A stretch of 63,927 bases of DNA, the filler included, from Folioceros fuciformis (lineage: Eukaryota): assembly GCA_049999805.1 (NCBI GenBank). It is 8 parts of 8 records of this genome, joined end to end, with 100 filler letters (N's around TTAATTAATTAA, not from the genome) between each part and the next. Parts side by side here need not be neighbours in the genome. Positions count along the whole stretch, not along the records: positions 50,223 to 57,600 come from JBNGIO010004111.1; 7 more parts are not named here. One strand, written 5' to 3'. The translations under genes and the position numbers were made by a program. Below, piece after piece: positions 3,201 to 57,700 of the stretch (the stretch's first letter is position 1; each line of letters starts with the position of its first letter). The notes beneath the pieces were generated by a model, which saw nothing but the letters and a program-made list of their open reading frames with translations, was not told where the DNA came from and did no database searches.

Positions 3201-3285
3201 ATCCAAGCTCCACGAGAGGGACCAGAGCTTCAACGGCTTCAGTGAGCTGTCCCTCCTCCTCCATTTTGACCCACGTTGCACCCAA
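250..3285 (-). CDS. PLS-class PPR protein (E1-E2-PG box, degenerate DYW tail); organellar RNA-editing specificity factor-like
   Basis: 1011-aa ORF with repeated P-L-S triplets (DVVTWTAMIAGYA / VTYACLLKAC / GNSLVDMYAKCG), then P2-L2-S2, E motifs (WVCLLGACRKHG; AAYVLMSHIY) and PG box HPGRSWI. True 5' end unresolved: the frame is open up to 3420, the first ATG is at about 3264, and an upstream exon is likely. Confidence 0.93.
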   Translation of the reverse strand: MGATWVKMEEEGQLTEAVEALVPLVELGYYVSASVFYLVLKRSMQQRDLDLGMRLHSLIFGSGYESNTFLANHLIRMYASHGRLDEAMHVFTNLQAPNAFVWLSVILAHFELSNSEQAIKLYEQMRDSKVKPDNYVFVAVLRACASIGDLASGKQVHADILNGIGEVNVFVGSSLVDMYTKCGSLENACSVFDGLPAKDVVTWTAMMAGYAEHGLGEEALSVYQRMQQEGITPADDVTYACLLKACATAGAMREGIELHYQMQERGLEADGVLGNSLVDMYAKCGNLEYARQVFDKLRRKDVVAWTSLIAGYAQSGLGQESLRLYASMQLERITPADQITFACLLKACGSMGALHEGKQIHCQIQSQGLEGELVVGSSLVDMYSKCGSLEDARAVFDRLPNRDVVAWTAMIAAYAQQGLGQESLMLYESMQQEGISSANRVTYVCLLKACGCVGALHQGKELHFEIQQRGLEKDVIIGNSLVDMYAKCGSLGDARRVFDRLSGRDVVTWTAMISGYAERGLGQEALTLHQMMQQEGISLADGVTFATLLKACASLGLLQQGKELHREIQRQALDADVVIGNCLVDMYAKCGSLQDAREVFDGLTSKDVVTWTVMIAGYANHALGQEALALYGRMEQEGMKPVDPVTVACLLKACASIGALDQGKGLHSQILDRGLDSDVGIGNCLVDMYAKCGSLKDCCSVFDKMLTKDMVTWSAMIAAYAQHGRSLEAFQCYEKMQEGKVRPDGVTFLSLLSACSHAGSVARGVEYFNSMSQEFGITPEIEHYVSMVDLFGRSGSFERIQDMLSTMPVQPDLALWVCLLGACRKHGNVALGEQAFASAVQLQPQHGAAYVLMSHIYADAGLLDCALEVQAQRQKERAWKHPGRSWIQHGQEVHSFTVHDRQHPLHQQLHSLLEKVRSKIRQSGRTSQTPNLIGSQQDCTLPDKQAATEAHFPHLVAGQVRAAKSMRLYHSATKLLTPLFLLHGKGSILLVRSCIAPGLPTAFWTSKPGVP

Positions 3286-3624
3286 AGGTTGTGCTTCATG
3301 GAAATCTGACCCTGCAAGACTGGTGGGCTGCTGAACAAGGGACCTGTCTACTGAGCTTTGAGGTTCGACACAATTCGACTTACAAAGCCAGTCACAGCCG
3401 GCTCCAGCCTCAAATCCACGCTACAGCAACGCTGGAGCAGATGACCTTGTTGCTGCTCCCGGTACCGCTTAGCCAAGCTGATAAACAGTTTGAATTTCTT
3501 CCAAGGACACACACAGAAAACAACATGGTGGCTCTCGGCACCGATCAACCCCGGGACTGCATGGGCCGCATTTCTTCGGGCGCAACACACAAGGAGTTGG
3601 GCGCTAACCGGACGCACCATTTCT

Positions 3625-6229
3625 ATGCCCCCGCTTCAATCTGGCATGCAAGTAGGGTGGAAGCAATCGCGACTGGCAGGAAGACTTGGGGTTCTTCTAC
3701 AGAAATCAACATGCTTCTCCAGGTGCGGGAGAAGACAGCTGTTCGGCCCCACGATGTCTAGCACAGCCTATGCTTCTGTTCTGACCGTCGGCTCAAACTT
3801 GCAGGGTGTCCGAGGAAGGAGCAGATTTCGAGGGTGGACCCTGGATCGAATTTTGTGAGAATGGATTGCTCCGCGATGCAGTCGAAGCGCTGGGTGTGGT
3901 CGTGGAGCACGGGAAAGGAAAACCACACCTATCTCGTTCTCTAGTACAATGTGTGCTTAGAAGGTGCGTTCAACAGAGGGATCTGGTGCTTGGGAAGCGA
4001 GTGCACCATCTCGCTATTAAAACTGGCTTCGAGTCAGACACATTGCTGGCAACCCAGTTCATCCAGATGTATGCTGGCCATGGAAGGCTGCAGGAAGCAA
4101 CAAAGGCGTTCACTGACGTTCCTGTGCCGGACATTTTCATGTGGGAGTCAATAATTTTGGTACATGTAAGGCGTGAACAGCATAGGCATGCCATAACTTT
4201 ATACAAACGGATGCGAAATTCGCCCTTGAAGCCGAACAGTTATATTTTTGTGGCAGTTCTTAAAGCTTGTGCCTCAACAGCAGATTTGGCAGCAGGAAAA
4301 GAGATCCATGTTGATATTCTCCACACCTTCAGCAAGATAAATGGAATTATGGGCACCTGCTTGGTGGAGATGTATGCAAAGTGTGGTAGGCTGGACGATG
4401 CTCGCAGAGTGTTTGACACTCTGGCTGCAAAGGATGTGATTTTGTGGACTGCCATGATCTCGGCATATGCACAGCGTGGGCTCGGTCAAGAAGCCCTAGA
4501 CTTGTATGCGAGTATGGTACAACAGGACAAGGCCCGAGCTGATCATTTCACATATGCTTGTCTTTTAAAAGCATGCGCTAGCATAGGGGCTTTACATGAG
4601 GGCAAGGTACTTCATGGTCAGATACGCAACGGAGGTCTGCAGGATGATATGATCATCGGTGCCTGCCTTGTGGACATGTATGCCAAGTGTGGGAGCCTAG
4701 AGGATGCCCGTAAAGTGTTTGAAAGCTTGTCCAAGAAGGACGTTGTCACATGGACTGCTATGATCACAGGATATGCTCAATGCGGACTCGGCAAAGAGTC
4801 TTTGTCTCTTTATGCCAGGATGCAGCAGGAGGGGTTAAGTCCAGTCAATCATGTTACATTTGTGTCTCTCCTAAACGCGTGTGCTAGCGCTGGAGCTTTC
4901 CATGACGGCAAGAAGCTTCATTCCCAAATACAGAAAAGGGGTTTGGAAACTGATACAGTTATTGGCAACTGTCTGGTGGACATGTACGCAAAATGTGGCT
5001 GCCTTGAGGATGCCCGCAAGGTTTTTGACAGTTTGCCCAATAAAGATATAGTGACATGGAACACAATGCTTGCAGGCTACAGCCAGAAAGGGCTTGGTCA
5101 AGAATCCCTTGATCTCTATGCCATAATGCCAGCAAACGAGAGACTGTCAGCTGATTCTGTTACATATGTGTGCCTCTTGAAAGCGTGTGCTGATCTTGGA
5201 GCTTTACATATGGGGAGGCATCTTCATTTCCACATCCAGGAAGGAGGTTTGGCATCGCAGGTAGCTGTAGGCAGCAGCCTGGTGGACATGTACGCTAAAT
5301 GCGGTGAGTTAGTAGATGCTCACAGATTGTTTGACAGGCTACCCATGAAAGATGTGGTGACATGGACAGCATTGATTGCTGGATATGTGGAACATGGGCG
5401 TGGCGAGGAAGCCCTTACCCTCTATTCCAGGATGCAACAGGTTGGAATTATGCCAGCTGATCATGTCACATTTTCCTTCCTTTTGAAAGCCTGTGCTGCT
5501 GTTGGGGCTGTCGACCGGGGGAAGCAGCTTCATGTCCAGGTTCAGTGCCGAGGTCTGGAAGGTGACGTGGCTGGGCCCCTGGTGAACATGTATGCAAAAT
5601 GCGGCCACCTAGAAGATGCATGCCAAGTGTTTACCAAACTGCATGGACGAGATGTGGTGACATGGAATGCCATGATCTCTGGGTTTGGACAGCATGGGTT
5701 GGTTGATGCAGCTGTGGTATGTTACGAGAAAATGCGGGTGGCGGGAATCCGCCCTGATGAAATCACCTTTCTTGCACTCATATCTGCGTGTAGTCATGCT
5801 GGACTGGTTGACAGGGGCATTCAATACTTCGAATCCATGAGCATCGATTATGGCCTAACTCCAGATATTGAGCATTATGTTACTTTGCTGGATCTGCTTG
5901 GACGTGCAGGATGCATGGTCAAGGCCGCAGAGTTGTTATCAACAATTCCCATGCAGCCTAATCTGGCTGTGTGGTTGTGTTTGCTGGGTGCCTGCCGGAA
6001 ACATGGAAATGTAGGGTTGGGAGAAGAGGCATTTCGTCGTGCAGTTAGTCTGGAGCCCAAGCATCCTGCTGCATATGTATTGATGGCACACATATACTCT
6101 GATGCCGGCCTCTTGGACGAGGCATTGAGGATGCAAGGGTTGAGAGAGAGACAAGGCGCATGGAAGAATCCTGGGCGAACATGGATTGAGCTTGGGCACG
6201 AGATACACACATTTGTCGTGGGTGAGTGA
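3625..6229 (+). CDS. PLS-class PPR protein ending just after the PG box (no DYW); predicted exons 3625-3722 and 3805-6229
   Basis: 807-aa ORF with PLS triplets, E1/E2 and WKNPGRTWIE...HTFVVGE*. Donor AG|GTGCGG at 3723, branch-like CTGAC at 3781 and acceptor TTGCAG at 3804 join an Arg/Ser/Leu-rich leader (MPPLQSGMQVGWKQSRLAGRLGVLLQKSTCFSR) in frame. PPR call is strong; exon 1 is a prediction. Confidence 0.92.
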
Positions 6230-10542: not shown

Positions 10543-10642
10543 NNNNNNNNNNNNNNNNNNNNNNNNNNNNNNNNNNNNNNNNNNNNTTAATTAATTAANN
10601 NNNNNNNNNNNNNNNNNNNNNNNNNNNNNNNNNNNNNNNNNN
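10543..10642. other. Artificial scaffold spacer (N-TTAATTAATTAA-N); same spacer at 27200-27299, 32800-32899, 37339-37438, 41310-41409, 50123-50222 and 57601-57700
   Basis: Identical 100-nt blocks containing a stop-in-all-frames linker. Confidence 0.97.
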
Positions 10643-13600: not shown

Positions 13601-15014
13601 AACTCAGAAAGAACCCAGACAAGGAACGGTCTCTGCCGTCCCAACATGACTCTCAACGGGACTGGCGACTTGCAGGTGAGATCCGATTCCGATGTGATCC
13701 TCCACGCTATATACATATTTTGTTGGTACAAATGTTTCTCTACTCAGTTTTCTCTTCCCTTCCATGGTCCTTTGCCCTTGGCTTGCTGGCATTGCCCAGA
13801 CCCGTCCTGGTGGCCACCTCGGTAACAGGCAGTTGGAGACCGGGGACGGCTCCGTAACTCAGTTCTCGGGACTGCAGCTCGGGGAAAGAAAGCATCGAAG
13901 TTCGGACTGGGCTGGAGCCTGCAAATGAGCAAATGCAATGTATGCAACATGCGGCCTAAAGTTGGAAATATTTGGGCATGCAAAGGGGGATGGATATGCC
14001 GGCTGGAGGCTGCCGGATGCACCCGCGCGCACGCAATGGGGCAAGGCATCAGATTCTCGTGCGCTCCACGTGTCTCAAAAAAAAAAAAAAAAAAAAAAAC
14101 GCCGTGTTTGCATAAGCATCAACTCTCAGTCACCCTCAAATGTGTGTTGTTAGACGTGCAAAAGCCAAAGCGACCGTTTTTGCAAGCACAAACGGAGATG
14201 GTGGTGCGGTAATGAATGAGCAATGCGGCTTGCGTGGTACGATGCCCTGCGTAAGCCTACGTCCTCCCCCGTCATATTAAATGCAGGGCACCGCAGTCTC
14301 CTGCTTGCATAGGAGGTGGGTACATGGCGTGATAGCCTATCTACCCGCTGCTGCTTCACAGCCAGCCAAGCCCGCCAGCCAGCCAGCCCTGTAACCTGCT
14401 ACCTGTTGCCCCTGGCCCCTGGCCCCTGGCCCCTGATCCCTGGCCTCCGGTCCTCCAGACAAAGTGTAAGTGGAAGTGTTTGGTCCCCACCAGTGCCACT
14501 CGCACGCATTAGTCCAGGCTTCCGGAATCGGAGATTACATTCCTCAGGATTTCCCTGCAGCGAGCGAGGAAGAGCGAAGAGTAGTGGGCACTGAGCACCG
14601 GGCACTGCACACTGCACACAGCACAGGCCCCGACGCTGCATCCCCGACCCTTAATGCTGTTCCGCGTAATGTGGCCATGCACATCGAGGATACGAGCTTG
14701 ATCTGCGCGACCCACGGGGGCTTGTTTGTCGGGTTTACAATGTTCTGACAGCTCCCACTCTTGTAAGCAATTCGTTCCGTACCTTCCTCCCCTGCTGGAG
14801 TGGAGTTGAGAATGCTGCCTGCCTGCCTCCCTCGTGCTACTGCCGCATCTCCCCAGTCTCGTGGCGTCCGCTTACATTTTTTACGGGGAGAGTGGAGGAT
14901 CCTCTGCCGTCCTTTTCTCGCTGTCGCCTTACCGGAGCTGAATTCCTCGTGCTTTCGGATCTGCCTGTTTGCCTGCAGCTCGCTTTCGCACCGATAGCCG
15001 GCAGGCGGCCTGAG

Positions 15015-17961
15015 ATGGCAATCGAGCAGCCCGCGCCAGCGTCGGTGGAGCAGGAGGGCAAGAAATCTGCTTCTGCTGAATCCACTCCCATCATCTCCTC
15101 GCTGGATCGATCCACCGGTCCCGCGCCTTTGCCGGTTGATGGGTGTGCCACCGAACTTGGGCTGGATGCTAGCGAGTCTGCGGAGGAGGATGCCTCGTTG
15201 CGAGAGGACCAGGAGGTCGTAGAGGAGGTGGCCGTTGCAAGGGAGTTGGAAAAAGCATCCAAGGAGCAGCAAGCGCAACCTCTGGTGGTGGAGGAAGCCA
15301 AGGAATTGCAATCTGCAAACGTGAATGTGCAATTGCCGGTTGTTGTGGACAAGAATGGCAAGCCGGCGGGTCCCAGGACTCCCAAGAAATCTCCCGGCAA
15401 GGGCTCGCCGAGGACCCTCAGTGTGGCCGTACCCAAGGCGTTGGCGGAGAAGACGCCAGACAAGAAATCCCCCAAGCTCACGTCCGCTAAGTCCCCGCAA
15501 GACAAGGGGCTGCTCACCCCTGAATCGGGGAAGAGGACGCAGGACAAGGCTGGAACTAATGGGCTTATTCCCGACCCGGCTGCCCTGGACNNNNNNNNNN
15601 NNNNNNNNNNNNNNNNNNNNNNNNNNNNNNNNNNNNNNNNNNNNNNNNNNNNNNNNNNNNNNNNNNNNNNNNNNNNNNNNNNNNNNNNNNCAAGCAAAAC
15701 CGCCTCTCAGGCTGATCACAAAACTCCAGAGAAGGGCGTCGTGAATCACAGACTCGGCCTCGCCAAGGTTGGTGCCCAGCAGACCCCAGGAGACAAGGCT
15801 TCGACCCCTTCGCCGAAAGGTAGCAAGGCATCGTCTCAGCAAAACACCCCGGAGAAGAGCGCTTCACAATCGTCCACTCCCAACAAGCTCACTTCAGGGA
15901 AGCTCTCTCCGAAGACAAGCCTGCGAATTCAGTCTCCTACCAAAAAGAGCGGCCTGTCTCCCAGGACTCCCAAGACACTCAAGACTCGCCTCTTCTCCGC
16001 CAAAGGCAATGGGAGCGCTGGCAACAGCCCGGGAAGTGAGGATGAACCGAAGACGGAAGGAGAGTCGCCAACAAAGAGATCGAGGGTGAAGCTTGCACTG
16101 GTAGAGGCTTACATGAAGGACGGGGATGATGCTCTAACTCCGGACTCGCCCAACATCGGCCCTACCTTGCTCAGGCTTGCAAAATCTTACCATGCTACGG
16201 GTGAAGGTCCGCAGAAAGCCAGGGAGTATGCCAGATATGCCGTCAAGTACTTCCAGAGCAAGGCCGAGGGGAAAGCAAGCCTGGACTTGGTTCTCAGCTT
16301 GCACATTCTGGCAGCTCTGCACTGCCGACTGGGGGAGTATAGGGAGGCCATTCCGGTTTTGGAGCGCTCTCTCACTGTGCCGGATCTGGAGCAGGGCTTG
16401 GAGCACTCTTTGGCCCTGTTTGCTGGGCACATGCAGCTGGGGGACACCTATGCGCTAACTGGAAACTATCACGATGCTGTGCAAGCATATCATGAAGCTT
16501 TGCGACTGCAAAAGGAAGCACTTGGCGACTCAGATCCTCGGTTCGGGGAAACTTGCCGCTATGTGGCCGAGGCACATTTGCAGGTAACGCCGTCCTCCAC
16601 TTGTCCTGCGTTTTCACATTCAGTTATGGTGCATTGCAGCTCTTTCATGGCCACCTGGCCGGCTGGCAGAAGGTTATGCATATTGCTTGAATGTGTGGGA
16701 TGACACGGAAAGGCTTGGCTGTACAGGCTATGCAGTTTGATGAAGCAGAACAGCTGTGCGAACAAGTTCTGAGGACGCACGGCTCGGACAATCCACCAGC
16801 TTCCGTGGAACAGGCAGCTGATAGGAGGCTCATGGCGCTGATCTGCAGTGAGAAAGGCGACTATGAGAAAGCTCTAGAGCATCTGGAGATGGCGAGTGCC
16901 ACTCTGCTAGTTAGTGGTGAAGATGCAGAGGCTGCTAGTGTCGACAACACAATAGGTGACACATACCTAGCGCTGGGACGGTACGACGAGGCAGTTTCTT
17001 CCTATCAAAAGGCACTGACTGTGCTCAAGTCCATAAAAGGAGAAAGCGATCCCACAATTGCCGCAGTCTATGTCAGCCTAGCAGAGCTATACTTGAAAAC
17101 AGGGAAATCGCGGGAAGCCAAGAGTTATGGTGAAAATGCCCTCAAGATATATGGCAGAAATGGAGTCAGTATTGGGCAAGATGACATAGCAGCTGGTCTA
17201 ACAGAGGTGGGAGCAATCTACGAAGCCATCAATGAGCGGGAGCAGGCCTTGCACTTACTTCAAAAGGCATTGCTCGTTTTGGATACTGCCCCTGGTCAGC
17301 AGAGTGCTGCTGCAGGCATTCTGGCTCAGATGGGGGTGATGTATTACGATATAGGCAAGCACGTCGAGGCCCTGAATGCTTTCAAGAGTGCTATTGTGAA
17401 GCTAAGGACGGGTGGGGAACGGAGGAAGCCCCTACTCGGTCTCGTGCTCAATCAGATGGGTCTGGCCTGTGTAGAGCTGTATGAGATAGATGATGCAGCT
17501 GAGATTTTCGAGGAGGCCAAAGCCATCCTGGAAGAAACGTGCGGTCCTCAACATTCTGATACTCTGGCAGTGTGCACGAATCTGGCGGGCACCTACGATG
17601 CCCTGGGCAGGTCTGTCTCATTTTCATGTAACATGAGCTATCCACACCTTACCAGCAAATACCGCCATGCTCTGCATCGTGGGCTCACTACCTGTGTGTC
17701 TGTTTAATGCTTCCTTGCAGATCAGATGAGGCTATCAAATTGCTGGAGTACATTCTTCAGGTGAAAGAAGAATCTCTGGGAACGGTGCATCCAGACTTGG
17801 CAGAGGAAAGGGCTGTGCTCTTGGACCTGTTACGAGCTGTCGGACGATCAAGAAGTCGCAAGTCGAACACTCTGCAAGAACTCCTTGATATTGCCCATGA
17901 AGAGAGTAGGAGATTCAGGGAGCTGGAACTAGCCAAGCAAGTTTCAACAACTTCGAGCTGA
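15015..17961 (+). CDS. KLCR: Kinesin light chain-related (KLCR/CMU-like) TPR protein; exons 15015-16583 (contains an N gap at 15591-15690), 16727-17610, 17721-17961
   Basis: Family-like motifs LHILAALHCRLG, GHMQLGDTYA, GETCRYVAEAHLQ|AMQFDEAE, AADRRLMALIC and NLAGTYDALGR|SDEAIKLLEYIL...LGTVHPD. GT-AG introns keep the frame. Confidence 0.9.
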
Positions 17962-27199: not shown

Positions 27200-27540
27200 N
27201 NNNNNNNNNNNNNNNNNNNNNNNNNNNNNNNNNNNNNNNNNNNTTAATTAATTAANNNNNNNNNNNNNNNNNNNNNNNNNNNNNNNNNNNNNNNNNNNNG
27301 CTCGGAGCCACCCAGCTCGCCGTACACTTCCATAGATTGCTACTACGATCCTAAAACAAATCAATATTATGACTATGAGCTCAATCAAGTTCAAGTAAAA
27401 TAATTCACCCCAGAAATGGTTTCGTATGGCACGTTATGGGCTGACAGAAGTTCGTGACACACTGTGGTTACGACAGCACATGACAACGCCTGCAGCGATG
27501 TGACTCGGACGAAGGCAGGCCAGAGGCACCATGTATTGCT

Positions 27541-32799: not shown

Positions 32800-34342
32800 N
32801 NNNNNNNNNNNNNNNNNNNNNNNNNNNNNNNNNNNNNNNNNNNTTAATTAATTAANNNNNNNNNNNNNNNNNNNNNNNNNNNNNNNNNNNNNNNNNNNNG
32901 CATGGACGTATCCTGCGCTGGCTGGGCTGGGCTGGGAGGGGGCAGCGCAGCCGGCAGACCCTGGACTCGAAAGCGACGCGCAGGCGCAGCAGCAGCAGAA
33001 GAAGAAGAAGACGGCAGGCAGGCAGGCCGACAGAAGGAGAGACAGATGTGCGGGGTAGAGCAGGACCAGCCGCCGGAGAAGTCCAGGCAAGCCAAGGTGC
33101 GGGGGAAAAGAAAGGGAGGAGCCGCAACAACAGCAGCAGCGGCAGCAGGAGGCAGGCAACAAAGTGCTGGGCCGACGACGCGGGCAGAGTCGAAAGAGAG
33201 AAGAGATAGCGGCGCTGCACATAAGCGTCCACCCTTCCCTTTCTCTTCGACTTCCTCTCCGTCTTCCTCTTCCTCTTCCTCTTCCTCTTCCACTTCCCTC
33301 CTTCCCCTTGCCGGGCAGCTGGTGGGCTGGGCCAATCGGACGTGAAGGCCGACGCGGCGTAGGAGGCGGAGGTCCAGACACAAGGCGACAAGGACGGGCC
33401 TGGGGACCTGGGATGGCGGGCTGCCCGTCCGTCCATCTGCCTGCTGCGCCTGCCCGCCCGCCCGCCATCGCCACAGTCCAGGAAGCCGCATTTTAGCCGC
33501 ATCGGCCAGTACAGGCCTTAGCCTTAGGAGGAGTGATAACGGTAATGGGCGCCGATAGCGTGTGGTGTTTTAACTTAAGCTCAGGGGGGCTGTTAAGGGT
33601 TTGACTGCGAGTATCTGCAAGCAGATTTGGTGGGCCCCGCGGGTGGGCCCCGCCTCCCATCCCCCCGTCCCGACAGCCCAGCGTCCCTGGGCCCTCAAAG
33701 CCGGACCCGGAGCCGGAGCACAGGAGGTGAGAGAGAGACTCGGAGGTCCCATCACACATACATGATGTACTGAACTGTACTGTACATGGAGATGGTGAGG
33801 TGCATATATATGCATGTAAGTACATATGTATATATAAAGGCCGGCAGCAGCGCCATGGTAAAGATTCTGAAATAACTGCGTGGTAAAAACGAGGTGGAGA
33901 GGACGGGGCGGCCAGGGCCCCTTTACGGCCTTACTCTCACCGTCGCGGCCCTCTCCTCACGTGGGCGAATAGCACGCGCGGAAAGGGAGCGGGATATGCG
34001 GCGGGATCCGGGGGTGTGCGCCAGGCGCCACGCCCATCTGCTGCCTCAAAGGAGCAACCAAAATCCCCCAAATTACGGGACTATGGATCGCATGCCCCAT
34101 CATGATCATGTCTGGACCACCACCACCACCACTACCGTTCGTTTCCCCAAATATTCACAAATCCCCCCAAACCTACGCCTTCACATACATACATACATAC
34201 CCTTGTATTCTCTTCCTCTGTGCTGTGCTGTGCTGTGTCCAGGAGTCCCGTCCCGGCTGTGTGGAGCGTCAAACAAGGACGATTCCTAGTCGCTTCGTCA
34301 TCATGAGTCGCCTGGTCGTCACGCGTCTTTGTAACGTTCCTG

Positions 34343-37220: not shown

Positions 37221-37479
37221 AGCAAGGACAGACCACAAGAGCTCAGGAAGAGAGGACCTCCAAGAGCTCACAAAGGGATAGATTGACTCCCAAAGTGAAT
37301 GACTCCCTCCTCCTACAGGCTCACCTGATCTTATAGGANNNNNNNNNNNNNNNNNNNNNNNNNNNNNNNNNNNNNNNNNNNNTTAATTAATTAANNNNNN
37401 NNNNNNNNNNNNNNNNNNNNNNNNNNNNNNNNNNNNNNAAATATAAATAAAATTCAAGTGAGGGTTGCATTACGCTCCC

Positions 37480-49725: not shown

Positions 49726-50223
49726 CTTGGCTTTCCTCTAAAGTTTCAAAGTATTTGAAAGATGTTGTGTAAATATTCAATATATATACATCTACTTGAC
49801 TTCTCACATAAATATAAAAATGTCTATATGTAGAAGTGCCTCTATAGATAGGAGATAGATCTATTAAGAATGATGTGCAAAAATAGACTTTCACGATTGA
49901 ATATTATTCATTATTTTTTATTCTATAAATATATAAAATACTCATATATAGTAAGAACTATTATAAGTCAAAATAAATTCACGTCATTAGACCCTAGGGT
50001 AAATAATTTTTCCATCTTATTTTTCTAAAATAAATAAAAAAGCTTCATAAGTAGATACATTTGGTCATCGAGTTCATTAAAAAAACAAAATTGTGAATGT
50101 AAGTGCTGAAAGTAATAAGATGNNNNNNNNNNNNNNNNNNNNNNNNNNNNNNNNNNNNNNNNNNNNTTAATTAATTAANNNNNNNNNNNNNNNNNNNNNN
50201 NNNNNNNNNNNNNNNNNNNNNNG

Positions 50224-50514
50224 AATGTTCAAACATGGTCATCGGATAACACTCTTAACTACCCAAATATGGACTGTCAGTTAACATTGAATTCCAATGG
50301 AGACTTAGTGATTAACAGTGCTAGCAATGCACTTCAAATTTGGTGGCACTCTAGAACTGGGTATGGTTCAATAATGCATAGTTTTTATGTCCTTGCAGTT
50401 TCTGCTCGTGAAATGGTGGCCAAAATTGCAAGATTAGACCATCACACGAAAAAGGTGCTCCAAGTTATATGGACTACTACGTTAGATATTCCTTCTGAAG
50501 AACCCATAAATTGA
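50224..50514 (+). CDS. 5'-truncated bulb-type (GNA/B-lectin)-like domain protein
   Basis: Open frame from the scaffold edge: TWSSDN...CQLTLNSNGDLVI.....WHSRTG, resembling W.S.T...C.L.LQ.DGNLVIY...W.S.T. Confidence 0.55.
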   Translation, partial: NVQTWSSDNTLNYPNMDCQLTLNSNGDLVINSASNALQIWWHSRTGYGSIMHSFYVLAVSAREMVAKIARLDHHTKKVLQVIWTTTLDIPSEEPIN

Positions 50515-51477
50515 GCTTTGAGTTTGAGGTGCAATGCTTATGGGCATAAGTATTTGCAAAGATTTTTGTAATTATTATGAGAATAAATTGATAATAATTT
50601 GGTGATGAGATTTTGTTGGGTTTGATTTTGTTGGGTTTGATTTCGTTGGGTTTTGTTTGTTGAGTGAGCTTAGCACAAGCATGTGTTAAGGAACGTGTGT
50701 TGTTGTGTGTGATGGGTTGTGTAAGAAAGTGTAAAGTGATGTGAAGGAAACTTGGCATCATGGATGTGTACCTCAACATAAGCTACTTCCCCTTTGTGGC
50801 CAGCTTTTGTTGTACTTGAATGAAGTACCTTTTTTTGGTGTCAAACAAAAAGGAACCTATGGGAGGAGTAGGTCAAGTTTCCGAGAAGGAAAAGGTGGTG
50901 AGGAGAAGTAAAAAAAAAAGTGAAGATACAATAAAGAAGGCAAGTAAGTAGGTAAGTAGGAAAAGCAATGTGGTATGGAGATGTGGAAAGGAGGTGCGTG
51001 AGGAAGCAAAAGCGATGTATGTGGAGGGGTTGGGAGTGGGATGGCAGAGCAGGAGGAGGAGCTGAAAACTTGTAAAGCTTGTGTGGCATAGCATTAAAGG
51101 GGGAGAGGGAGAAAAGCTGTTACGAAGGAGAGGTGGAGAGAGGAGAGGAGAGGAGGATACATAGTTGCAGCCGGGGGATCGGGAATCGTGGCTCCTATGA
51201 CTTGGTGGTGGGTTACCTAACCGGGCGGGCTGGCTGGCTGGCTGGCTGGCTGGCTTTGTGGCCCGCCAAGAGGAGGAGAGGGGAGGGAGGAGGACAGAAT
51301 AATGGGGGGACGGGAAAAGGAGGAAGCGGGTAATCGAGTAGAAAAAAGAAAAAATGGGGTAGAAATCCCTAAGTCCTGAATCTGCACGTGAAGCGTGGAA
51401 TAGTGGAGTTACAACGGCAAATTGATTGAAGTCCAAGTGCGGAGGTGAGTACGCTGGAATCGCATTTGCCAGCCAAC

Positions 51478-53003
51478 ATGCCGGGTGCCGTGGACAAGGA
51501 CGCGAAGCACAGCAGAGAGGCAGCAGCAGTTGCTTTACAGCTTTTCAGGAGCATCGGCTTGGACGAGCGCACTGCCCACAACGCCATTTCCAATTCCAAG
51601 CTCTCAGCCCAGCTGAGGCAGGTGATCAGCGAGGTGGGTGTGCACACCCCGCATTGCTGCTGCCGCTTTGGGTGCCGGTGCGAAGCTGGCTGCCCGGCCA
51701 ATGGCAATGCGCCACCCCGAGGCCGCCCCGCTTCCCCCCGTTCTGGTGCCTGATACGTGAGAAGTGTTGGGCGCTGCGGTGCAGGCAGGAGTGGGAGATG
51801 GGTGCGACGGGGCTGTGGGAAATCTGCTGTTTGCGGTACGGCCGACGCCATTCCGGGTGCTGTGAAGGTGGAGTTTGTGGGATGAAGTGGCTGAGTTTGT
51901 TGACGGGGTGTGGCAGGTGGCGACCCAGTATCCTGTGAACGCGCTGCGCCACCGGGGGGCGTTGCTGGAGTATGTCACGAGCTATAAGGTGTGGTGGGTG
52001 CTTCGCCAACCCTTGTGGGCGGGAGCAGGTGGAATTTGGGTTGGAATTCCGGGGCCTCATACGTTGTGGGTGCAGATAAGGAGCGTGTCGCAGCTGGAAG
52101 GCGCGTTTGGGTATTTGGCGTCCGTGGGCTCGGGGGCGTTGGATTACAGGGAGCTGGAGAAGAGGAGCGGTTTAGGTGAGTGGAAGGAGGTGTTGGGTTG
52201 TGCACGGCGCGTTGTGGGTCGTGTTGTGACGGGTGGGTGTGGCTGGGGAATGCGAATTTCAGGAGTGGACGGCTCTGCTGACCGCATCAGGTTGGCTGTG
52301 GAGGAGGTGGTCAGGTTGAATAAGAAGCAGCTTCTGGTTGAGCCTCATCGGATAAACGGTGGGTTTTTCTTGCTCACCTCGGTCTGTGGCGTTCAGTGTC
52401 TGGCTTTCTTGCGAGAGAAGGATTGAGGAAGATTTGTGTCCTGAATGGTATTGGTACTGGTGCTGGGTGCGTTCAAGGCACTTGCACTCAATGCGGTCGT
52501 CTTGCCTCTGTTTCAGTGGGAGCCTTGCTTGGTCAAGCACGGGAGCAAGTGCCATGGGCTGATTTGAAGCAGTTGAAGGTATCGCTTCGCGGGTCCAGGA
52601 ATAGACGTCTGTCTGCTCGGATGTTTGGAAGGAATGTTGGGTTTTCTCTTTTACGCTTGTGGGCTCCCTCCTCCATTCATGTCTCGTGTCTCGTGTCTCC
52701 TGCTTTGCTTTGCTTTGTTTTCCCTCTCCAGGCAGAAATGGATTTCCAGCTCAAACGAGTGCTCGGCGAAAGTACTGCTCTGGACGAGCAGGAGAGTTCA
52801 TTCACCAAGAAGAAGGAAAAGCTAAAAGTTGAGGTACGTTGTGGCTGGCTGCGATAGTCTGGATGGCAGGAGCTTCCCCATTTTGAGCTGCCTCTCCTTG
52901 TGTCGGCCCTCTTCGTAAGGTTTGTTCCATGCCTTGCCGTGGTGCAGGAGCCGACCAAAGGTGCAAAAACTGTCTCCGCTCCTGAGCCAGAAGAGACTGA
53001 CCG
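51478..53003 (+). CDS. Glutaminyl-tRNA synthetase N-terminal appended domain only (8 exons: 51478-51633, 51785-51835, 51917-51988, 52076-52175, 52263-52358, 52517-52578, 52732-52833, 52948-53003)
   Basis: LFRSIGLDERTAHNAISN, GCDGAVGNLL, VAT.YP.NAL.HR..LL.Y, QLEGAF, VG.LLG..R...PWAD and KKKEK match the plant GlnRS N-terminus. All introns are GT-AG and phase-consistent. No catalytic core (RFPPEPNG) in the scaffold. Confidence 0.9.
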
Positions 53004-53140
53004 GTATGCTGTATACATCTCTGAGTGACAAACCGTAGCGCAGCTGTAGCTGTAGTGATTTCTCAGCGTCAGGTTGAGGACTGGAAACTCTTGTTTTTCT
53101 AAGCCTCTCTTTCCTCCTTTTGCCGTCGTCCTTGCCTTAG

Positions 53141-53903
53141 CCGAGGGAGGGAGCTTGGGGAGACAGGGAGGGGGGCGGTGCCAAGCATGCGCGGTTCCAA
53201 GGAAGGTTCCGTGGTGAGCTCGCAAGCCAATCCCAAAGGCCTGCAAAACGGCTTGCAAAGTCCAGGCAGTCCCTTGGATTCACAGATGATGCTTTTGGGA
53301 GTGGACAAGAAGAAGTCCAAGAAGTTTCTAACCATTGTCAGGTCCATCTTCCACGTTTCCATGCCTTCCTTGCCCTGCAAGTGGCTAGCCCTGCCTCCAG
53401 GCCCCTCGGATTCCCCTTCCCTGGGCAGCCGCATCACTGGCACTCTATTTGGGTTTAGGAAAGGCCATGTGCATTTCGTGGTGCAGGAAGATCCCAAATC
53501 CCAACCTGTCCTACTGCTGGAGCTGGCCACACCCACCAGCTCCCTTGTCAAGGAGATGGCCTCGGGGCTGGTCAGGATTGCGTTGGAATGCGAGAGGACT
53601 CCCAACAGGGGAAGGTTGTTCCAGGAACCCATGTGGACTATGTACTGCAACGGAAGGAAGACAGGGTATGCCATCAGACGAGTATGCTCGGAATCGGACC
53701 TCCATATTCTGACTTTGGTCCAAGCTGTGTCAATGGGTGCCGGCGTGCTCCCCATAGACGACGATGGCCCCAATGGCGAGCTCATGTACATGAGAGCTCG
53801 GTTCGAGAGGGTTGTGGGTTCCCGGGATTCTGAGGCTTTCTACATGATGAACCCTGATGGCACTGGTGGGCCAGAGCTCAGTATCTTCTTGTTGAGAATA
53901 TAG
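53141..53903 (+). CDS. MIZ1: MIZU-KUSSEI1-like (DUF617) domain; predicted last exon of a fusion with the GlnRS N-domain (alternative: independent start at ATG 53187)
   Basis: TGTLFGFRKGHVHF.VQEDP...LLELA.PT..LVKEMASGLVRIALEC, WTMYCNGRK.GYA, VSMGAGVLP and GELMYMRARFERVVGSRDSEAFYMMNPDG.GGPELSIFLLR. Confidence 0.93.
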
Positions 53904-55658
53904 ACGACTTGGCCACACCCGGCGGGCGGCCACGACATTTTAACACAGCTGATCATCACTAACTGCAGTCTTGTCGCCATACACGTCCTCCAGATGGTTC
54001 TGACCAGACAACAGAGCTCAGCTCAGCTCAGACCAGCCCAGCCCACTCCACGACAGCGATGGAGCCAACTGGTGGAGTCTGCAGGTTATTTGCTAGCTGG
54101 AGCACAAGTCCTTGTAATTTACGTCGCAGGGGAGAGGAGATGTGCCATATCGTGCAGAGCATTGCACTGAGTTTTTCCAGCAGAGTGTGTGGTTCACGTC
54201 CCTCAAATGTGTGTGTGTGTGTCTCGAGGTACAAGGGTAGCAGGCCAGACGTGTGGAGGAGGAATCTCTGTGTACAGATTAGAAGGGTGGTGATGGCAGT
54301 GTGTCACCCATCTGGAGATGTCAAGAGGCACGCAGTCTGATGGCCCCTCAGCACAGCACGGAGAAGCTGGGTTGCGCCGAATGGATGCCGTATCTGTGGA
54401 AGGATGATGGAAGATAGATGTTCCTCCCCTCCCCCCCCCCCCCNNNNNNNNNNNNNNNNNNNNNNNNNNNNNNNNNNNNNNNNNNNNNNNNNNNNNNNNN
54501 NNNNNNNNNNNNNNNNNNNNNNNNNNNNNNNNNNNNNNNNNNNCCTCCACTCCACTCCTCATTCTCACTCCTTGGCTGTTAGTTGGGCATGGAGACTTCG
54601 GGAAACTATTCATTTGCAGAGAAGACATTGCTGTTAGCATGTAATATTCATGTGACAGTTCTGCTCGGCAGGCAAAGAGCCATGCGTCTCGTGCTTGCTT
54701 GCCAGCTTGCTCCCTCCACTAACTGACTGATCATGGTGACTCATTATTATGCTGTTGCCCAGAGTGGCAGGAGCACCTTTCTCTACACCCTCTTGCTACC
54801 TCAGCAGACCCAGTAGCAGAAAATGCTTGGCACAGGACTCAACAGCTCGTGAAAGTCCCGTTGTTGCCGATAGATTTATGATTCATGCTGGCTTGCTGTC
54901 TTGCTTGCTGGCTGTCACACTAGAAATGCTACACAGGCTGATTCACTGCCTGTCTCATAAATGCCCACGTGTTGCCCGCTACACGACAGACCAATCTTTG
55001 TGGGCACCACAGCTGCACGTTAGGCGGGTAGTAACGTGACACGATAGCCATAGTGTGTAATCAATTCTCTCCTTCCTCTCCTTGGAGGTGAACTGGAAGT
55101 AGGCTTGCCCTTCTTGGGAATCTCCCGTCTCCCGTGTATGTCTCTGGTCCACATCTTGCTTATTATTCGGTGCTCCAAAAAGGAATCACATCACACTGAC
55201 ACATTCTCTCCTGGTCCCGGTCCTTCTCCTGGTCCCGATCCTGGTCCTTACGTTCTCCACAGAAGCGTGGACTACAGGTTGTTTTGTACAGGATTGGCTT
55301 GCATTGGGTTGGGTTCCATCGGAGTTGTGTGAACAAAGCTTGATTGCTGGACCTTTTGGTTACACATAGCTCAAATCACTAAGTGTACATGAACACCTAG
55401 GTGCCATGAAGACAAATCCCAGCCTCGCAAGAAGCTGAAAACATGTCCCGAGGGGACGGAGGGAAAGTGGGGAGATCGATGCAAGTGGGCCGAAAAATGG
55501 AGGCATTTTTGAGGAAGGCCAAGATTATTATCATACATTATGTTTCAATTGAGTTTTAAATTTTTTTAGATCATCCGTATTTAGGGTATGTTCTCCTGAG
55601 CAATAGTACCTAATAATGAAATTCTATCAAGTAATAACAAGTAAGCAGCCCAGAAAGG

Positions 55659-56084
55659 CTAGAGAGTGAGAGGGAGAGTAGGCCGTCTTCTCCTCGTGGC
55701 CAAAGAAGCTTGAATCAAGGTAGAAATGAGTAGTATGTATATCAGATTTTTGCTTTCTACTTGGCGAATATAACGCTCAAGATTCCGTAGACGCGGCTCA
55801 TGAGAGGAAAGGACAGATACGTCGCGTTCAGTCTCGTCTACGCGATTCTTCACCTGGCGCAACCTCCTCTCCAGCAAGATAACACGACCCTCAAGCCCGC
55901 CTAGCACTCGTCCCAAGGCCCGAGTCGCGGTGTCTGCATCTCGTGGCGCCATATTGTCAATTACGCGGAGCCCCAGGCGTTGCACAGTCTGGTTAAGCCG
56001 GTTCAACCTGTTCTGAACGTGGTCTAAATCTGTTCTCACAACATCCCAGGTGAGATGAGCGCGACCGTTGCCGTTAGCTGCCAT
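55659..56084 (-). CDS. Hypothetical coiled-coil protein with C-terminal hydrophobic segment
   Basis: 141-aa ATG-initiated ORF with heptad Leu pattern (LDHVQNRLNRLNQTVQRL; LERRLRQVKNRV). No family recognised. Confidence 0.4.
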   Translation of the reverse strand: MAANGNGRAHLTWDVVRTDLDHVQNRLNRLNQTVQRLGLRVIDNMAPRDADTATRALGRVLGGLEGRVILLERRLRQVKNRVDETERDVSVLSSHEPRLRNLERYIRQVESKNLIYILLISTLIQASLATRRRRPTLPLTL

Positions 56085-56094
56085 CGTAACCAAG

Positions 56095-56640
56095 AAACCC
56101 GGTGCCTTCTTCCACACGGAGGCCCTGCACCAGTCTTTGCCGACACTCAGACTCGGATTCAGCTGCTGCAGACCTCAAACCCTGATCAACAACTCACGCG
56201 GACCGGAAGGCCCTGTCCTTGCGCTGGCGGAAAATGAAGACGCGGCCTATGCTGTTGCAAACCTCAAACCCTGATCAACAACACACGTGGATTGGAACTC
56301 TGTGAGAAGCACTGCCGGGCATGCCTGGCTTCCGCGACGATCAACCGGAAGGTCCTGTGCTTGCGCCTGCAGAAAATAAAGACGAGGTTTATGCTGTTGC
56401 AAACCTGGACCCCTGGTCAACAACACACAGAGTGGAACTCTCAGAGAGGCAGTGCCAGAACCCCGACGCCGTCTTCCACACGGATGGCCCTGGCCCTGAC
56501 CCTGGCTCTGTGCTTGCTCTTGCGGAATTTGACGACGCGAACCTTTTGCAAACCCTGATCAACAACACACATGGACTGAAACTCTGTGAGAGGCACTGCC
56601 GGGCATGCCTGGCTTCAGCTGTTTCACACACTGCCGAAAA
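56095..56640. repeat. Mosaic of dispersed direct repeats (AAACCCTGATCAACAAC..., GAACTCTGTGAG..GCACTGCCGGGCATGCCTGGCTTC, ACCGGAAGG.CCTGT.CTTGCGC)
   Basis: Modules recur near 56177/56266/56550 and 56202/56344. Confidence 0.75.
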
Positions 56641-56907
56641 TCAGCCTTAAAGTTTGCTTCACTCTGTGGAGCATCAAGGACTCTAGAAGGTGCACAGCGC
56701 ACAAATTCAGAAGATGGAAGGCCAATCGTGTGGCACTTAGAATCCGAAAGTCGTGGTAGTGCAGGCGCCGGTCCGCGGAATGCGAGAACACTAGATAAAT
56801 CACATTCGTGTCCGATCTGCTGTCGCGAGATTTCAAATTCTCAGACAAGTGAGCTCATGGTGTCGGGAACAAACATGCGAGTCACCAAACGCTTGTATGT
56901 GTGCGGA

Positions 56908-57600
56908 TATTTATTATTATTTATTTATCATTAGGCGTATGCAGCCGTGAGGCTATGACGCCGAACGTCAATCAAAAATAGATTGAATGGACACTTTGGG
57001 AAAACGCAAAAGAAAGAAGATTAGAGCAAATAAAATAGAAAATCTAGATAGCTATGTCAATAAGCCTAAGTTAAGTAATCACCAATCGCCTTGAAGTAAG
57101 AGAGAAGTTTTTCCCTGAGTTTGGGAACACTAAGAAGTTGGCAGATATCGCAGTAAGAGCCTTGAAACACCTGGATCCAAGTGTTGCGAGTGGCCATACA
57201 CTGGCCAAGGATGTGGTGACGAGTTTCTTCTGAAGACCTGCATTTCCGACAAAATGAATCCTCTGCAATGTTGAATCTCGTAAAGTAAGCCCCAATAGCC
57301 ATATGCCCAGTCCGAAGCTAGGTGAGAATTGATGAGAGCTTACGGTCATGGAGACCAAGGAGTTGTAGCAGCGAGGCCGAAGGGCCACCAAGCACCACCC
57401 TCTTAAGTACAGAAGCCTTAGTTGAGGAAACCCACCGTAAACGCCACTCTTGTAGAATTGCAGCATGAATTTGCTGGCGAGCTCTAGACACTGATAGGAT
57501 CCGATCTTCGCGGGAAATGGGAAGAAGAGTGGCAGCCTTAGCGGTTACATCTGCATGCTCATTACCAACTATATTATGATGGCCCGGAATCCAGTGGAGA
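56908..57600 (-). mobile_element. 3' end of a non-LTR (LINE) retrotransposon
   Basis: C-terminal zinc knuckle FCRKCRSSEETRHHILGQC, followed by a 3' stem-loop and a (TAA/TAAA)n tail at 56908-56933. Confidence 0.75.
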
Positions 57601-57700
57601 NNNNNNNNNNNNNNNNNNNNNNNNNNNNNNNNNNNNNNNNNNNNTTAATTAATTAANNNNNNNNNNNNNNNNNNNNNNNNNNNNNNNNNNNNNNNNNNNN

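What the first reader, a model, noticed from the sequence alone, without database searches (positions are those of the whole stretch)
51478..53903. Predicted chimeric gene: GlnRS tRNA-binding N-terminal domain spliced in frame to a MIZU-KUSSEI1 (DUF617) domain
Seen: eight short exons reconstruct the whole non-catalytic N-terminal appendage of eukaryotic glutaminyl-tRNA synthetase, with every GT-AG intron in the correct phase and no stops, despite visible amino-acid divergence. Exon 8 ends at a good donor (CG|GTATGC, 53004). After a pyrimidine tract, the acceptor at 53140 (CCTTAG|C) leads in frame into the DUF617 ORF, giving 1458 nt (485 aa). No GlnRS catalytic core is in the scaffold. Known: this GlnRS domain aids tRNA binding, and MIZ1 is an ER-associated hydrotropism/Ca2+-signalling regulator whose genes are normally stand-alone. 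Inference: a partial duplication or exon-shuffling event created an RNA-binding MIZ1-type protein. I know of no description of this architecture. Caveat: reading through the donor gives DRYAVYISE*, which still resembles the ancestral NPYTIFPQPE. The donor is therefore newly recruited, and a truncated GlnRS-only isoform is also possible.
Basis: partly seen in the sequence, partly recalled or inferred. Interest (0 to 1): 0.92.

Follow-up and report, generated by a model that had tools for sequence, protein, structure and literature searches.

The report
Expressed GlnRS N-domain–MIZ1 fusion gene
A land-plant gene splices the tRNA-binding front part of glutaminyl-tRNA synthetase in frame onto a MIZU-KUSSEI1-type (DUF617) signalling domain, and spliced RNA from four related organisms carries the same join, a protein design I could not find described.

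Summary
Nine exons (51478-53903) give one open frame of 1458 nt, or 485 aa. Exons 1-6 are homologous to the GlnRS N-terminal appended domain (Pfam PF04558). Exon 9 is a complete DUF617/MIZ1 domain (E 3e-72).

Contigs of four public runs were laid on the stretch. One organism is identical to the window and three are 90-95% alike, from four studies. They skip every predicted intron at GT..AG, including 53003|53141. Single contigs bridge the GlnRS-type exons and the MIZ1 ORF.

Of the 15 listed between-organism differences in the N-domain exons, 11 are synonymous in the predicted frame, against 1 and 0 in the other two frames. So the N-domain is maintained as protein.

A canonical GlnRS paralogue is also transcribed (loose ends). 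No fused form appeared in two large protein collections or in six paper searches.

Still untested: translation of the fusion, RNA binding, and how far the fusion spreads taxonomically. Two organisms skip exon 5, which removes part of the tail subdomain. Verdict: a real, conserved, lineage-restricted chimeric gene with a new domain architecture for two known families.

The parts
51478..51633 (+). Exon 1 with the start codon (ATG 51478-51480). It encodes aa 1-52, the start of the GlnRS N-terminal domain.
   Evidence: Pfam PF04558 E 5.8e-6, profile positions 4-34. Human GlnRS residues 23-60, E 0.0013. tblastn of P0135 gives 55% identity. Joint 51633|51785 is seen in X1, X2 and X4.
51785..51835 (+). 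Exon 2 (aa 53-69)
   Evidence: Aligned to P0135. Joints on both sides appear in the RNA contigs.
51917..51988 (+). Exon 3 (aa 70-93)
   Evidence: Aligned to P0135. Joints 51835|51917 and 51988|52076 are seen in 4 of 4 runs.
52076..52175 (+). Exon 4 (aa 94-127). It ends in phase 1 inside the hinge motif G-L-G.
   Evidence: Pfam PF04558 positions 79-110, E 0.16. In the blastp alignment to P0138, G-L-G lies opposite G-V-G. The importance of the hinge comes from PMC3333875 section 14.
52263..52358 (+). Exon 5 (96 nt, aa 127-159), the first helix region of the tail subdomain. It is present in organisms A and B and skipped in frame in C and D.
   Evidence: Joints 52175|52263 and 52358|52517 are seen in X1, and a near-identical pair in X2. 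Joint 52175|52517 is seen in X3 and X4. Aligned to P0138.
52517..52578 (+). Exon 6 (aa 159-179). It holds a Trp that I take to be the conserved one of the family; that assignment was made by eye.
   Evidence: Translation. The alignment to P0138 reaches aa 167. Joints in 4 of 4 runs.
52732..52833 (+). Exon 7 (aa 180-213), a Lys/Glu-rich linker
   Evidence: Translation. Joints in 4 of 4 runs. No Pfam hit of its own.
52948..53003 (+). Exon 8 (aa 214-232). It is cut short by a recruited donor, CCG|gtatgc.
   Evidence: Splice sites. Contigs of the canonical GlnRS paralogue in X3 and X4 match 52978-53009 and then read on into GlnRS-type sequence (tables 5 and 7).
53004..53140 (+). Intron 8 (137 nt). 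It holds the relic of the ancestral exon continuation and a stop at 53026-53028, then a pyrimidine tract and the acceptor.
   Evidence: Joint 'skips 137, GT..AG' in 4 of 4 runs. Read-through ORF 52858-53028.
53141..53903 (+). Exon 9. It codes 15 codons upstream of the ancestral MIZ1 start (former 5' leader), then the complete MIZ1-like ORF (ATG 53187) and the stop TAG at 53901-53903.
   Evidence: ORF 53103-53903. Alignment with 8 stand-alone MIZ1-like proteins. Both listed differences in 53141-53186 are synonymous (2 of 2).
53433..53897 (+). DUF617 (MIZ) domain
   Evidence: Pfam PF04759, E 3e-72, 242.4 bits. Residues 83-237 of the 238-aa ORF cover profile positions 1-159 of 159.
53904..54435 (+). 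3' UTR (minimum extent). The transcript appears to continue across the 54444-54543 N gap.
   Evidence: X1 record 3 covers 53140-54435 without a difference. Loose ends of X2 and X4 at 54415 and 54434 resemble the sequence after the gap (compared by eye).

Best explanation
This is a real, expressed, lineage-restricted chimeric protein-coding gene.

Origin (inferred): a partial duplicate of the 5' part of the cytosolic glutaminyl-tRNA synthetase gene, holding the start codon and eight exons, came to lie directly upstream of an intronless MIZ1-like gene. A GT inside what used to be the middle of GlnRS exon 8 is used as donor. An AG 46 nt upstream of the old MIZ1 start codon is used as acceptor.

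Shown: one mRNA with one 485-codon frame, the same join in four related organisms, and substitutions in the N-domain exons that are mostly synonymous.

Inferred product: a helical GlnRS N-terminal domain (aa 1 to about 180), a flexible charged or Ser/Gly/Pro-rich linker of about 150 residues, and a C-terminal DUF617 domain.

Inferred working: the DUF617 part behaves like other MIZ1 proteins, peripheral on the cytosolic face of the ER and binding partners such as the ER Ca2+-ATPase or cytokinin receptors. The N-domain adds a second binding surface, for tRNA/RNA or for a protein partner of GlnRS. The GlnRS-derived 5' end probably also supplies the promoter and the start codon.
For: Spliced RNA. 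In one search (table 5) the joint 53003|53141 ('skips 137, GT..AG') is carried by one contig in each of X1, X2, X3 and X4. Of the other seven joints, five are carried by all four runs; 51633|51785 is missing from X3, whose contig starts at 51783, and the two joints flanking E5 are replaced in X3 and X4 by a direct E4-E6 joint. Bridging contigs (table 8) are X1 record 3 (1836 nt, 51916-54435, 0 differences), X2 record 4 (1989 nt), X4 record 7 (2341 nt, 51472-54327) and X3 record 5 (671 nt).

Frame. The CDS is 1458 nt with a single terminal stop. All nine exon pieces of X2 have the window's lengths, and its 23 gap letters all lie at places after the stop codon (tables 4 and 8). The exon 5 skip removes 96 nt and stays in frame.

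Selection. Of the 39 coding rows among the 40 difference rows shown (84 more were not shown), the N-domain exons have 15. Of these, 12 fall on codon position 3 (p = 2.9e-4) and 11 are synonymous (expected fraction 0.24, p = 1.2e-4). Scored in the two other frames, 1 of 15 and 0 of 15 are synonymous. The 46-nt former leader has 2 of 2 synonymous and the MIZ ORF 17 of 22. Total divergence of the N-domain exons (40 of 600 letters in X2) is similar to that of exon 9 plus the UTR (55 of 1049).

Homology. See for the GlnRS N-domain. See for DUF617 (70-84% identity to stand-alone MIZ1-like proteins, over 100 invariant columns).

Parental gene. Contigs that match only 51538-51584 and 52978-53009 read on into canonical GlnRS-type sequence in X1-X4 (tables 5 and 7; translated by eye).

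Family functions. GlnRS NTD: PMC3333875 (abstract and section 14) and PMC4838373 (passages). MIZ1: PMC6077737 (abstract) and bioRxiv 10.64898/2026.10.12.758437 (abstract, section 5 and passages).
Against: 1. Translation of the fusion is not shown. The old MIZ1 ATG (53187) is still there, so a MIZ1-only product from internal initiation or from a rare internal promoter is not excluded.
2. The contigs of organisms C and D lack exon 5. This removes about 32 residues of the tail subdomain and the second hinge glycine, and it argues against strict conservation of a tRNA-clamping fold.
3. The hinge reads G-L-G, not the nearly invariant G-V-G.
4. The substitution counts use only the 40 rows the tool printed out of 124.
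5. The kind of run is a guess in the records ('RNA?'). I take the contigs to be RNA because they lack the introns.
6. Contigs show only the dominant form, so minor isoforms such as read-through to the stop at 53026 cannot be judged.
7. PF04558 does not reach its curated cut-off on any single exon (26.8 bits against 28.6). The spliced product could not be scanned against Pfam.
Confidence: 0.75

Rival explanations
1. Promoter and leader capture only. The chimeric mRNA is real, but the only functional product is the MIZ1-like protein, made from the internal ATG at 53187. The GlnRS-derived exons would serve as a long transcribed leader that brings a new promoter.
For: The ancestral ATG and the full MIZ1 ORF are intact. 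The start aligns with the N-termini of stand-alone homologues. Exon 5 is dispensable in two organisms.
Against: A leader would not keep a 231-codon open frame in phase with the MIZ ORF. It would also not accumulate mostly synonymous changes in that frame (11 of 15, against 1 and 0 of 15 in the other frames). The exon skip keeps the frame. Scanning ribosomes would meet the ATG at 51478 (A at -3) long before 53187.
Confidence: 0.1
2. Two genes with a conjoined transcript. A truncated GlnRS-N gene ends at the stop at 53026, and a separate MIZ1-like gene has its own promoter. The spliced join would be a secondary read-through product.
For: The read-through frame ends 8 codons after the donor. Contigs cannot show rare isoforms or transcript starts (tool note).
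Against: Only 158 nt separate that stop from the MIZ1 ATG. That leaves no room for a 3' UTR, a terminator, a promoter and a 5' UTR. The joined form is the one assembled in all 4 runs laid. Both listed changes in the former leader are synonymous (2 of 2).
Confidence: 0.08
3. Artefact. Either the short genomic piece is misassembled, or the transcript contigs are chimeric assemblies.
For: The assembly is fragmentary: 22 runs of N and artificial spacers. Logan contigs are short-read assemblies.
Against: The stretch 50223-54443 is contiguous sequence. The join uses canonical GT..AG at the same bases in four organisms from four studies. It is also supported by the genomic intron itself.
Confidence: 0.02

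Closest known systems
MIZU-KUSSEI1 (MIZ1) / DUF617 family, PF04759
   Same: The C-terminal domain is complete and highly conserved (E 3e-72). It is 70-84% identical to stand-alone MIZ1-like proteins of lycophytes, ferns, Ginkgo and liverworts. The coding part is intronless, like an ordinary MIZ1 gene.
   Different: All 120 listed near-length relatives carry DUF617 only. The 14 longer ones carry DUF617 alone or with unrelated domains, and none has PF04558 or PF04557. Here the old start codon is internal, at residue 248, and eight foreign exons precede it.
N-terminal appended domain of eukaryotic glutaminyl-tRNA synthetase (PF04558; yeast Gln4 NTD, human GlnRS NTD; structurally GatB/YqeY-like)
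   Same: The match is colinear over PF04558 positions 2-152. A hinge motif sits at the equivalent place and is followed by a charged linker. The start codon and first residues resemble those of plant GlnRS fragments.
   Different: There is no catalytic or anticodon-binding domain behind it. No class-I signature motifs occur anywhere in the window. The hinge is G-L-G instead of G-V-G. The sequence differs clearly from the same organism's canonical GlnRS transcript right after the conserved core of exon 1 (loose ends, translated by eye). Exon 5 is missing in two relatives.
Synthetase-derived modules reused outside aminoacylation. Examples: the Deinococcus GlnRS-YqeY chimera (PMC1865053, search listing only); the HisRS-like tRNA-sensing domain of GCN2 and the free-standing Trbp111/Arc1p-type tRNA-binding domains (both recalled, not from a call)
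   Same: A tRNA-binding accessory module of the Gln-tRNA pathway is shuffled as a unit onto another protein.
   Different: The partner here is a plant ER-associated signalling protein of unknown biochemistry. It is neither a kinase nor another translation factor. tRNA binding is untested.
Chimeric genes born from partial duplication plus recruited splice sites (the jingwei or TRIM5-CypA type; recalled)
   Same: The parental gene is retained and a 5' fragment supplies the start codon. Splice sites are recruited, and the product is under purifying selection.
   Different: The recipient is an intronless gene entered through its 5' leader. The route, whether DNA duplication or another mechanism, is not resolved here.

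Membership tests
MIZ1 / DUF617 (PF04759) | DUF617 domain above Pfam's gathering score, full length | tested here: met
   242.4 bits against a cut-off of 22.6, profile positions 1-159 of 159
MIZ1 / DUF617 (PF04759) | Family-wide invariant residues kept | tested here: met
   More than 100 invariant columns are shared with 8 stand-alone homologues
MIZ1 / DUF617 (PF04759) | Stand-alone architecture (variable N-terminus plus DUF617, no other domain) | tested here: not met
   Eight GlnRS-type exons are spliced in frame upstream. This is the novelty, not a reason to doubt the DUF617 domain.
MIZ1 / DUF617 (PF04759) | ER association; binding of ECA1 or cytokinin receptors | not testable with these tools
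   Known for Arabidopsis and Marchantia proteins only (PMC6077737 abstract; preprint abstract and passages)
GlnRS N-terminal domain (PF04558, tRNA_synt_1c_R1) | Match to the family profile above the gathering score | tested here: inconclusive
   Only single exons could be scanned. E1 scores 26.8 bits against 28.6, and E4 12.4 bits at colinear positions. Indirect support is strong: the spliced product aligns with P0135 (itself PF04558, E 1.7e-23) at E 6.5e-38, and with P0138 over R1 positions 2-152 at E 6e-19.
GlnRS N-terminal domain (PF04558, tRNA_synt_1c_R1) | Conserved inter-subdomain hinge G-V-G and the conserved Trp (PMC3333875 section 14) | tested here: inconclusive
   G-L-G aligns with G-V-G of P0138. 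A Trp is present in exon 6, but its equivalence to yeast W160 was judged by eye. Exon-5 skipping in X3 and X4 alters the hinge.
GlnRS linker region (PF04557, tRNA_synt_1c_R2) | Profile match | tested here: not met
   No hit for E7 at E <= 1. E8 is too short to scan. The gene is cut inside this region.
Glutaminyl-tRNA synthetase (enzyme) | Class I catalytic domain with HIGH- and KMSKS-type motifs and an anticodon-binding domain | tested here: not met
   None of the six recalled class-I or GlnRS motif patterns was found in any of the six frames of the window. tblastn with the core pieces of P0138 found nothing. The transcript goes from exon 8 straight into DUF617. It is not a synthetase.
GlnRS N-terminal domain (function) | Binds tRNA(Gln) or RNA | not testable with these tools
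   Needs EMSA or CLIP with the recombinant domain
Chimeric gene by partial duplication | Parental gene retained and expressed | tested here: met
   Contigs matching only 51538-51584 and 52978-53009 continue into canonical GlnRS-type sequence in X1-X4 (tables 5 and 7). Only fragments were seen, not the whole gene.

The most novel reading that the evidence does not exclude
The GlnRS-derived domain still binds tRNA(Gln) or another RNA, or docks to the synthetase's own partners. It would then make this MIZ1 protein an ER-anchored sensor or tether that couples tRNA or translation status to ER Ca2+ or cytokinin signalling. That would be a plant counterpart, built from different parts, of the way GCN2 uses a synthetase-like domain to read tRNA.
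Probability: 0.15. Interest if true: 0.8.

Novelty: new variant of a known kind. Interest (0 to 1): 0.58.

Why it matters
MIZ1 is required for root hydrotropism and is linked to ER Ca2+ and cytokinin signalling, yet its biochemical activity is unknown. A natural, selected fusion to a module of known activity (tRNA binding, or docking of GlnRS) is a 'Rosetta stone' hint about what MIZ1 proteins work with. It is also a clean, datable case of gene birth by partial duplication with recruited splice sites. For synthetase biology it would be a rare case of the GlnRS appended domain being reused away from the enzyme. If the domain proves inert, the case is still a well-documented lineage-specific chimera, but of modest general interest.

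Tried and rejected
1. Whole genome: none is held for this window. The canonical GlnRS locus and other copies could therefore not be searched.

3. Sequencing runs: no RNA holder is listed on record. The kinds of run are guesses.

4. Intron 8 and the region upstream of 51472 have no contig cover in the four runs. I draw nothing from this about a read-through isoform or the transcript start.

5. Word-index search with exon 1 among longer proteins: 38 candidates, none scored.

6. phmmer of exon 1 against 1.84 billion representatives: 5 hits, none fused. Three are short plant GlnRS fragments, one is an animal GlnRS model and one is an unrelated repeat protein.

7. PDB search with exon 4: nothing. 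PDB search with the DUF617 profile: nothing.

8. Pfam on E3, E6 and E7: nothing. E5 gave only a meaningless 7-residue hit.

9. The spliced protein could not be given to Pfam, structure or database tools, because joined sequence is not accepted there. It was compared only inside scripts.

10. Cluster look-up of the GlnRS fragments gave no names.

11. Identity of the chimeric N-domain to plant GlnRS fragments (48-55%) is about the same as among those fragments (53-60%). This says nothing about acceleration.

12. Rfam on 50223-57600: nothing.

13. The structure prediction of the exon-9 product had not finished after repeated collection up. No fold statement is made.

14. P0012, a 439-aa DUF617 protein, was checked as a possible distant fused form. 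It carries DUF617 only.

The homologue lists of the MIZ1 preprint and of PMC9303528 might mention such a gene model, and I could not see them.
Full report
**What is in the sequence**

The stretch 51478-53903 (+) contains nine exons. Their boundaries were worked out from the three-frame translation and checked against splice sites.
- E1 51478-51633
- E2 51785-51835
- E3 51917-51988
- E4 52076-52175
- E5 52263-52358
- E6 52517-52578
- E7 52732-52833
- E8 52948-53003
- E9 53141-53903

All eight introns (81-158 nt) begin with GT and end with AG. Joined, the exons give 1458 nt with a single, terminal stop, which is 485 residues.

**What the two halves are**

The ORF from ATG 53187 to 53900 is a full DUF617 (MIZ) domain. 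Pfam PF04759 scores E 3e-72 and 242 bits over profile positions 1-159 of 159. Among proteins of similar length, 2335 relatives were found. All 120 listed carry DUF617 only. The best are 70-84% identical and come from lycophytes, ferns, Ginkgo, liverworts and unnamed transcriptome assemblies. An alignment with eight of them shows over 100 invariant columns. It places the Met at 53187 at about the position of their own N-termini.

For the upstream exons, E1 alone hits PF04558 (E 5.8e-6, positions 4-34, just under the curated cut-off). E4 hits colinear positions 79-110 weakly. In the PDB, E1 finds only human glutamine-tRNA ligase: 4 of 4 hits, best E 0.0013, residues 23-60.

A full HMMER pass of E1 over 1.84 billion representative proteins gave 5 hits. 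One is P0135, a 110-aa plant fragment that is itself PF04558 at E 1.7e-23. Another is P0138, an animal GlnRS model carrying PF04558, PF04557 and PF00749. Inside a script the spliced product aligns with P0135 over aa 1-109 (55% identity, E 6.5e-38). It aligns with P0138 over aa 5-167 (33% identity, E 6e-19), which corresponds to PF04558 positions 2-152 of 162.

So E1-E6 encode the GlnRS N-terminal appended domain. E7 and E8 encode a Lys/Glu-rich linker with no detectable PF04557 match. The hinge between the two subdomains is nearly invariant G-V-G in the family and is needed for tRNA binding in yeast (PMC3333875, section 14). Here it is G-L-G at the E4/E5 junction.

No class-I catalytic motifs occur in any frame of the window (the motifs were recalled). 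No other copy of either half is present.

**The decisive test**

One search for sequencing runs listed 20 holders from 7 studies. X1 holds 0.64 of the sampled words and the others 0.09 or less. I laid X1-X4 (coded organisms A-D, four studies) on 50700-54440. The contigs lack the introns, so I take them to be RNA-derived, although the records give the kind of run only as a guess.

The joints:
- 53003|53141 ('skips 137, GT..AG') is present in one contig of each of the four runs.
- Five further joints (E2/E3, E3/E4, E6/E7, E7/E8 and the E4 donor) are also present in all four.
- E1/E2 is present in X1, X2 and X4.
- E4/E5 and E5/E6 are present in X1 and X2, while X3 and X4 join E4 directly to E6.

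Single contigs bridge both halves:
- X1 record 3 (1836 nt, 51916-54435, no difference from the window)
- X2 record 4 (1989 nt)
- X4 record 7 (2341 nt, 51472-54327)
- X3 record 5 (671 nt)

X2's exon pieces have the window's lengths, and all 23 of its gap letters lie after the stop codon. The exon-5 skip removes 96 nt and keeps the frame. The fused mRNA is therefore real and shared by organisms that differ by 5-7% in these exons.

**Is the N-domain kept as protein?**

The tool printed 40 of 124 difference rows, and 39 of them lie in the CDS. In the N-domain exons there are 15.
- 12 fall on third codon positions (binomial p = 2.9e-4).
- 11 are synonymous, where 24% would be expected (p = 1.2e-4).
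- Scored in the two other frames, the same 15 changes give 1 and 0 synonymous.

The two changes in the 46-nt former leader (53141-53186) are both synonymous. In the MIZ ORF 17 of 22 are synonymous. Overall divergence of the N-domain exons (40 of 600 letters in X2, 44 of 604 in X4) is no higher than that of exon 9 plus the UTR (55 of 1049 and 73 of 1188). This is the signature of purifying selection on the predicted frame. It rests on a partial list.

**The parental gene**

Contigs in X1-X4 match the window only at 51538-51584. In X3 and X4 they also match 52978-53009. They then read on as different sequence (tables 5 and 7). Translated by eye, these loose ends look like a canonical plant GlnRS. 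The one behind 53009 runs into the conserved segment that precedes the catalytic domain.

So a separate GlnRS is transcribed, and exon 8 of the chimera is cut inside what is a longer exon in the parent. This fits a partial duplication with a recruited donor. It does not prove the route.

**Weighing the rivals**

- A pure promoter or leader capture would not preserve a 231-codon frame in phase, nor a synonymous-biased substitution pattern.
- Two separate genes are hard to fit. Only 158 nt lie between the read-through stop and the MIZ1 ATG, and the joined form is what all four assemblies contain. Contigs cannot exclude minor isoforms.
- An artefact is unlikely. The genomic stretch 50223-54443 is contiguous, and the same canonical join recurs in four organisms.

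Against my reading:
- Translation of the fusion is unshown.
- Exon 5 is absent in two organisms. This removes part of the tail subdomain and the second hinge glycine.
- The hinge valine is replaced.

**How it probably works**

The DUF617 part is so conserved that it most likely does what MIZ1 proteins do. They sit at the cytosolic face of the ER and bind partners. ECA1 is bound and inhibited in Arabidopsis (PMC6077737, abstract). Cytokinin histidine kinases are bound in Arabidopsis and Marchantia (bioRxiv 10.64898/2026.10.12.758437, abstract and passages).

The GlnRS N-domain binds tRNA in yeast (PMC3333875, abstract). In human GlnRS it is said to matter for catalysis, for assembly of the multi-synthetase complex and for ASK1 binding (PMC4838373, passages). 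In the fusion it could add an RNA- or protein-binding surface on a long flexible tether. The captured 5' end probably also changed where and when the MIZ1-like protein is made. These steps are inference.

**Novelty**

- Among 14 DUF617 proteins of 418 residues or more, none has PF04558 or PF04557.
- None of the 5 hits to exon 1 is fused.
- Paper searches: 'MIZU-KUSSEI' with 'glutaminyl-tRNA synthetase' gave one paper, a pennycress transcriptome seen only in the listing. The Pfam names and accessions gave two papers, neither holding both families. 'DUF617' with 'tRNA synthetase' gave none.
- The recent survey of MIZ1 across land plants does not contain the words tRNA, hornwort or 'domain architecture'.

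Limits: the window's organism and its close relatives appear to be absent from the protein collections, and supplements were closed. I therefore rate this as a new domain architecture for two known families, not a new kind of system.

**Context**

The window is an artificial concatenation. Seven N44-TTAATTAATTAA-N44 spacers join separate pieces, and there are eight ordinary gaps. The piece holding the gene is 50223-57600. Neighbourhood arguments beyond that piece are therefore void.

Noticed in passing
window 10543-10642, 27200-27299, 32800-32899, 37339-37438, 41310-41409, 50123-50222, 57601-57700: Seven spacers of the form N44-TTAATTAATTAA-N44 (a six-frame stop linker). They show that the window is a concatenation of separate scaffolds, so gene order across them is not biological. 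There are also seven 100-N gaps and one 10-N gap.
   Followed up: partly
window 250-3420 (-), 3785-6229 (+), 42959-46726 (+): Three long intronless PLS-type pentatricopeptide-repeat ORFs with E motifs (Pfam PPR E 1e-88 to 1e-106, E_motif hits). These are candidate organellar RNA-editing factors.
   Followed up: partly
window 14670-17707 (+): Two adjoining ORFs rich in TPR_12/TPR_10 repeats, probably one gene.
   Followed up: no
window 40331-41353 (-): Copia-type reverse transcriptase fragment (PF07727, E 2.4e-44), cut by a spacer.
   Followed up: no
window 57071-57644 (-): ORFs that by eye resemble the RNase H/RT end of a non-LTR retroelement. Not scanned.
   Followed up: no
window 51605-51812: One X1 contig (208 nt, depth 17.1, against 36.9 for the spliced joint) retains intron 1. 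In frame, this would stop translation 39 codons after exon 1. It is either unspliced RNA or a minor isoform.
   Followed up: no
window 52263-52358: Exon 5 is skipped in frame in the contigs of organisms C and D but kept in A and B. In B the exon's last 4 nt are replaced by 3 other letters and the joint lies 1 nt upstream of the window's acceptor, which keeps the length (tables 5 and 5c).
   Followed up: partly
window 51224-51255: A (GGCT)8 microsatellite about 220 nt upstream of the start codon. The read-laying tool skipped this repeat, and contigs of two organisms end at 51472, so the 5' UTR is undefined.
   Followed up: no
window 54444-54543: This 100-N gap lies inside the 3' UTR. Loose ends of relatives' contigs at 54415 and 54434 resemble the sequence right after the gap, so the true gap is probably only a few bases (by eye).
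   Followed up: partly
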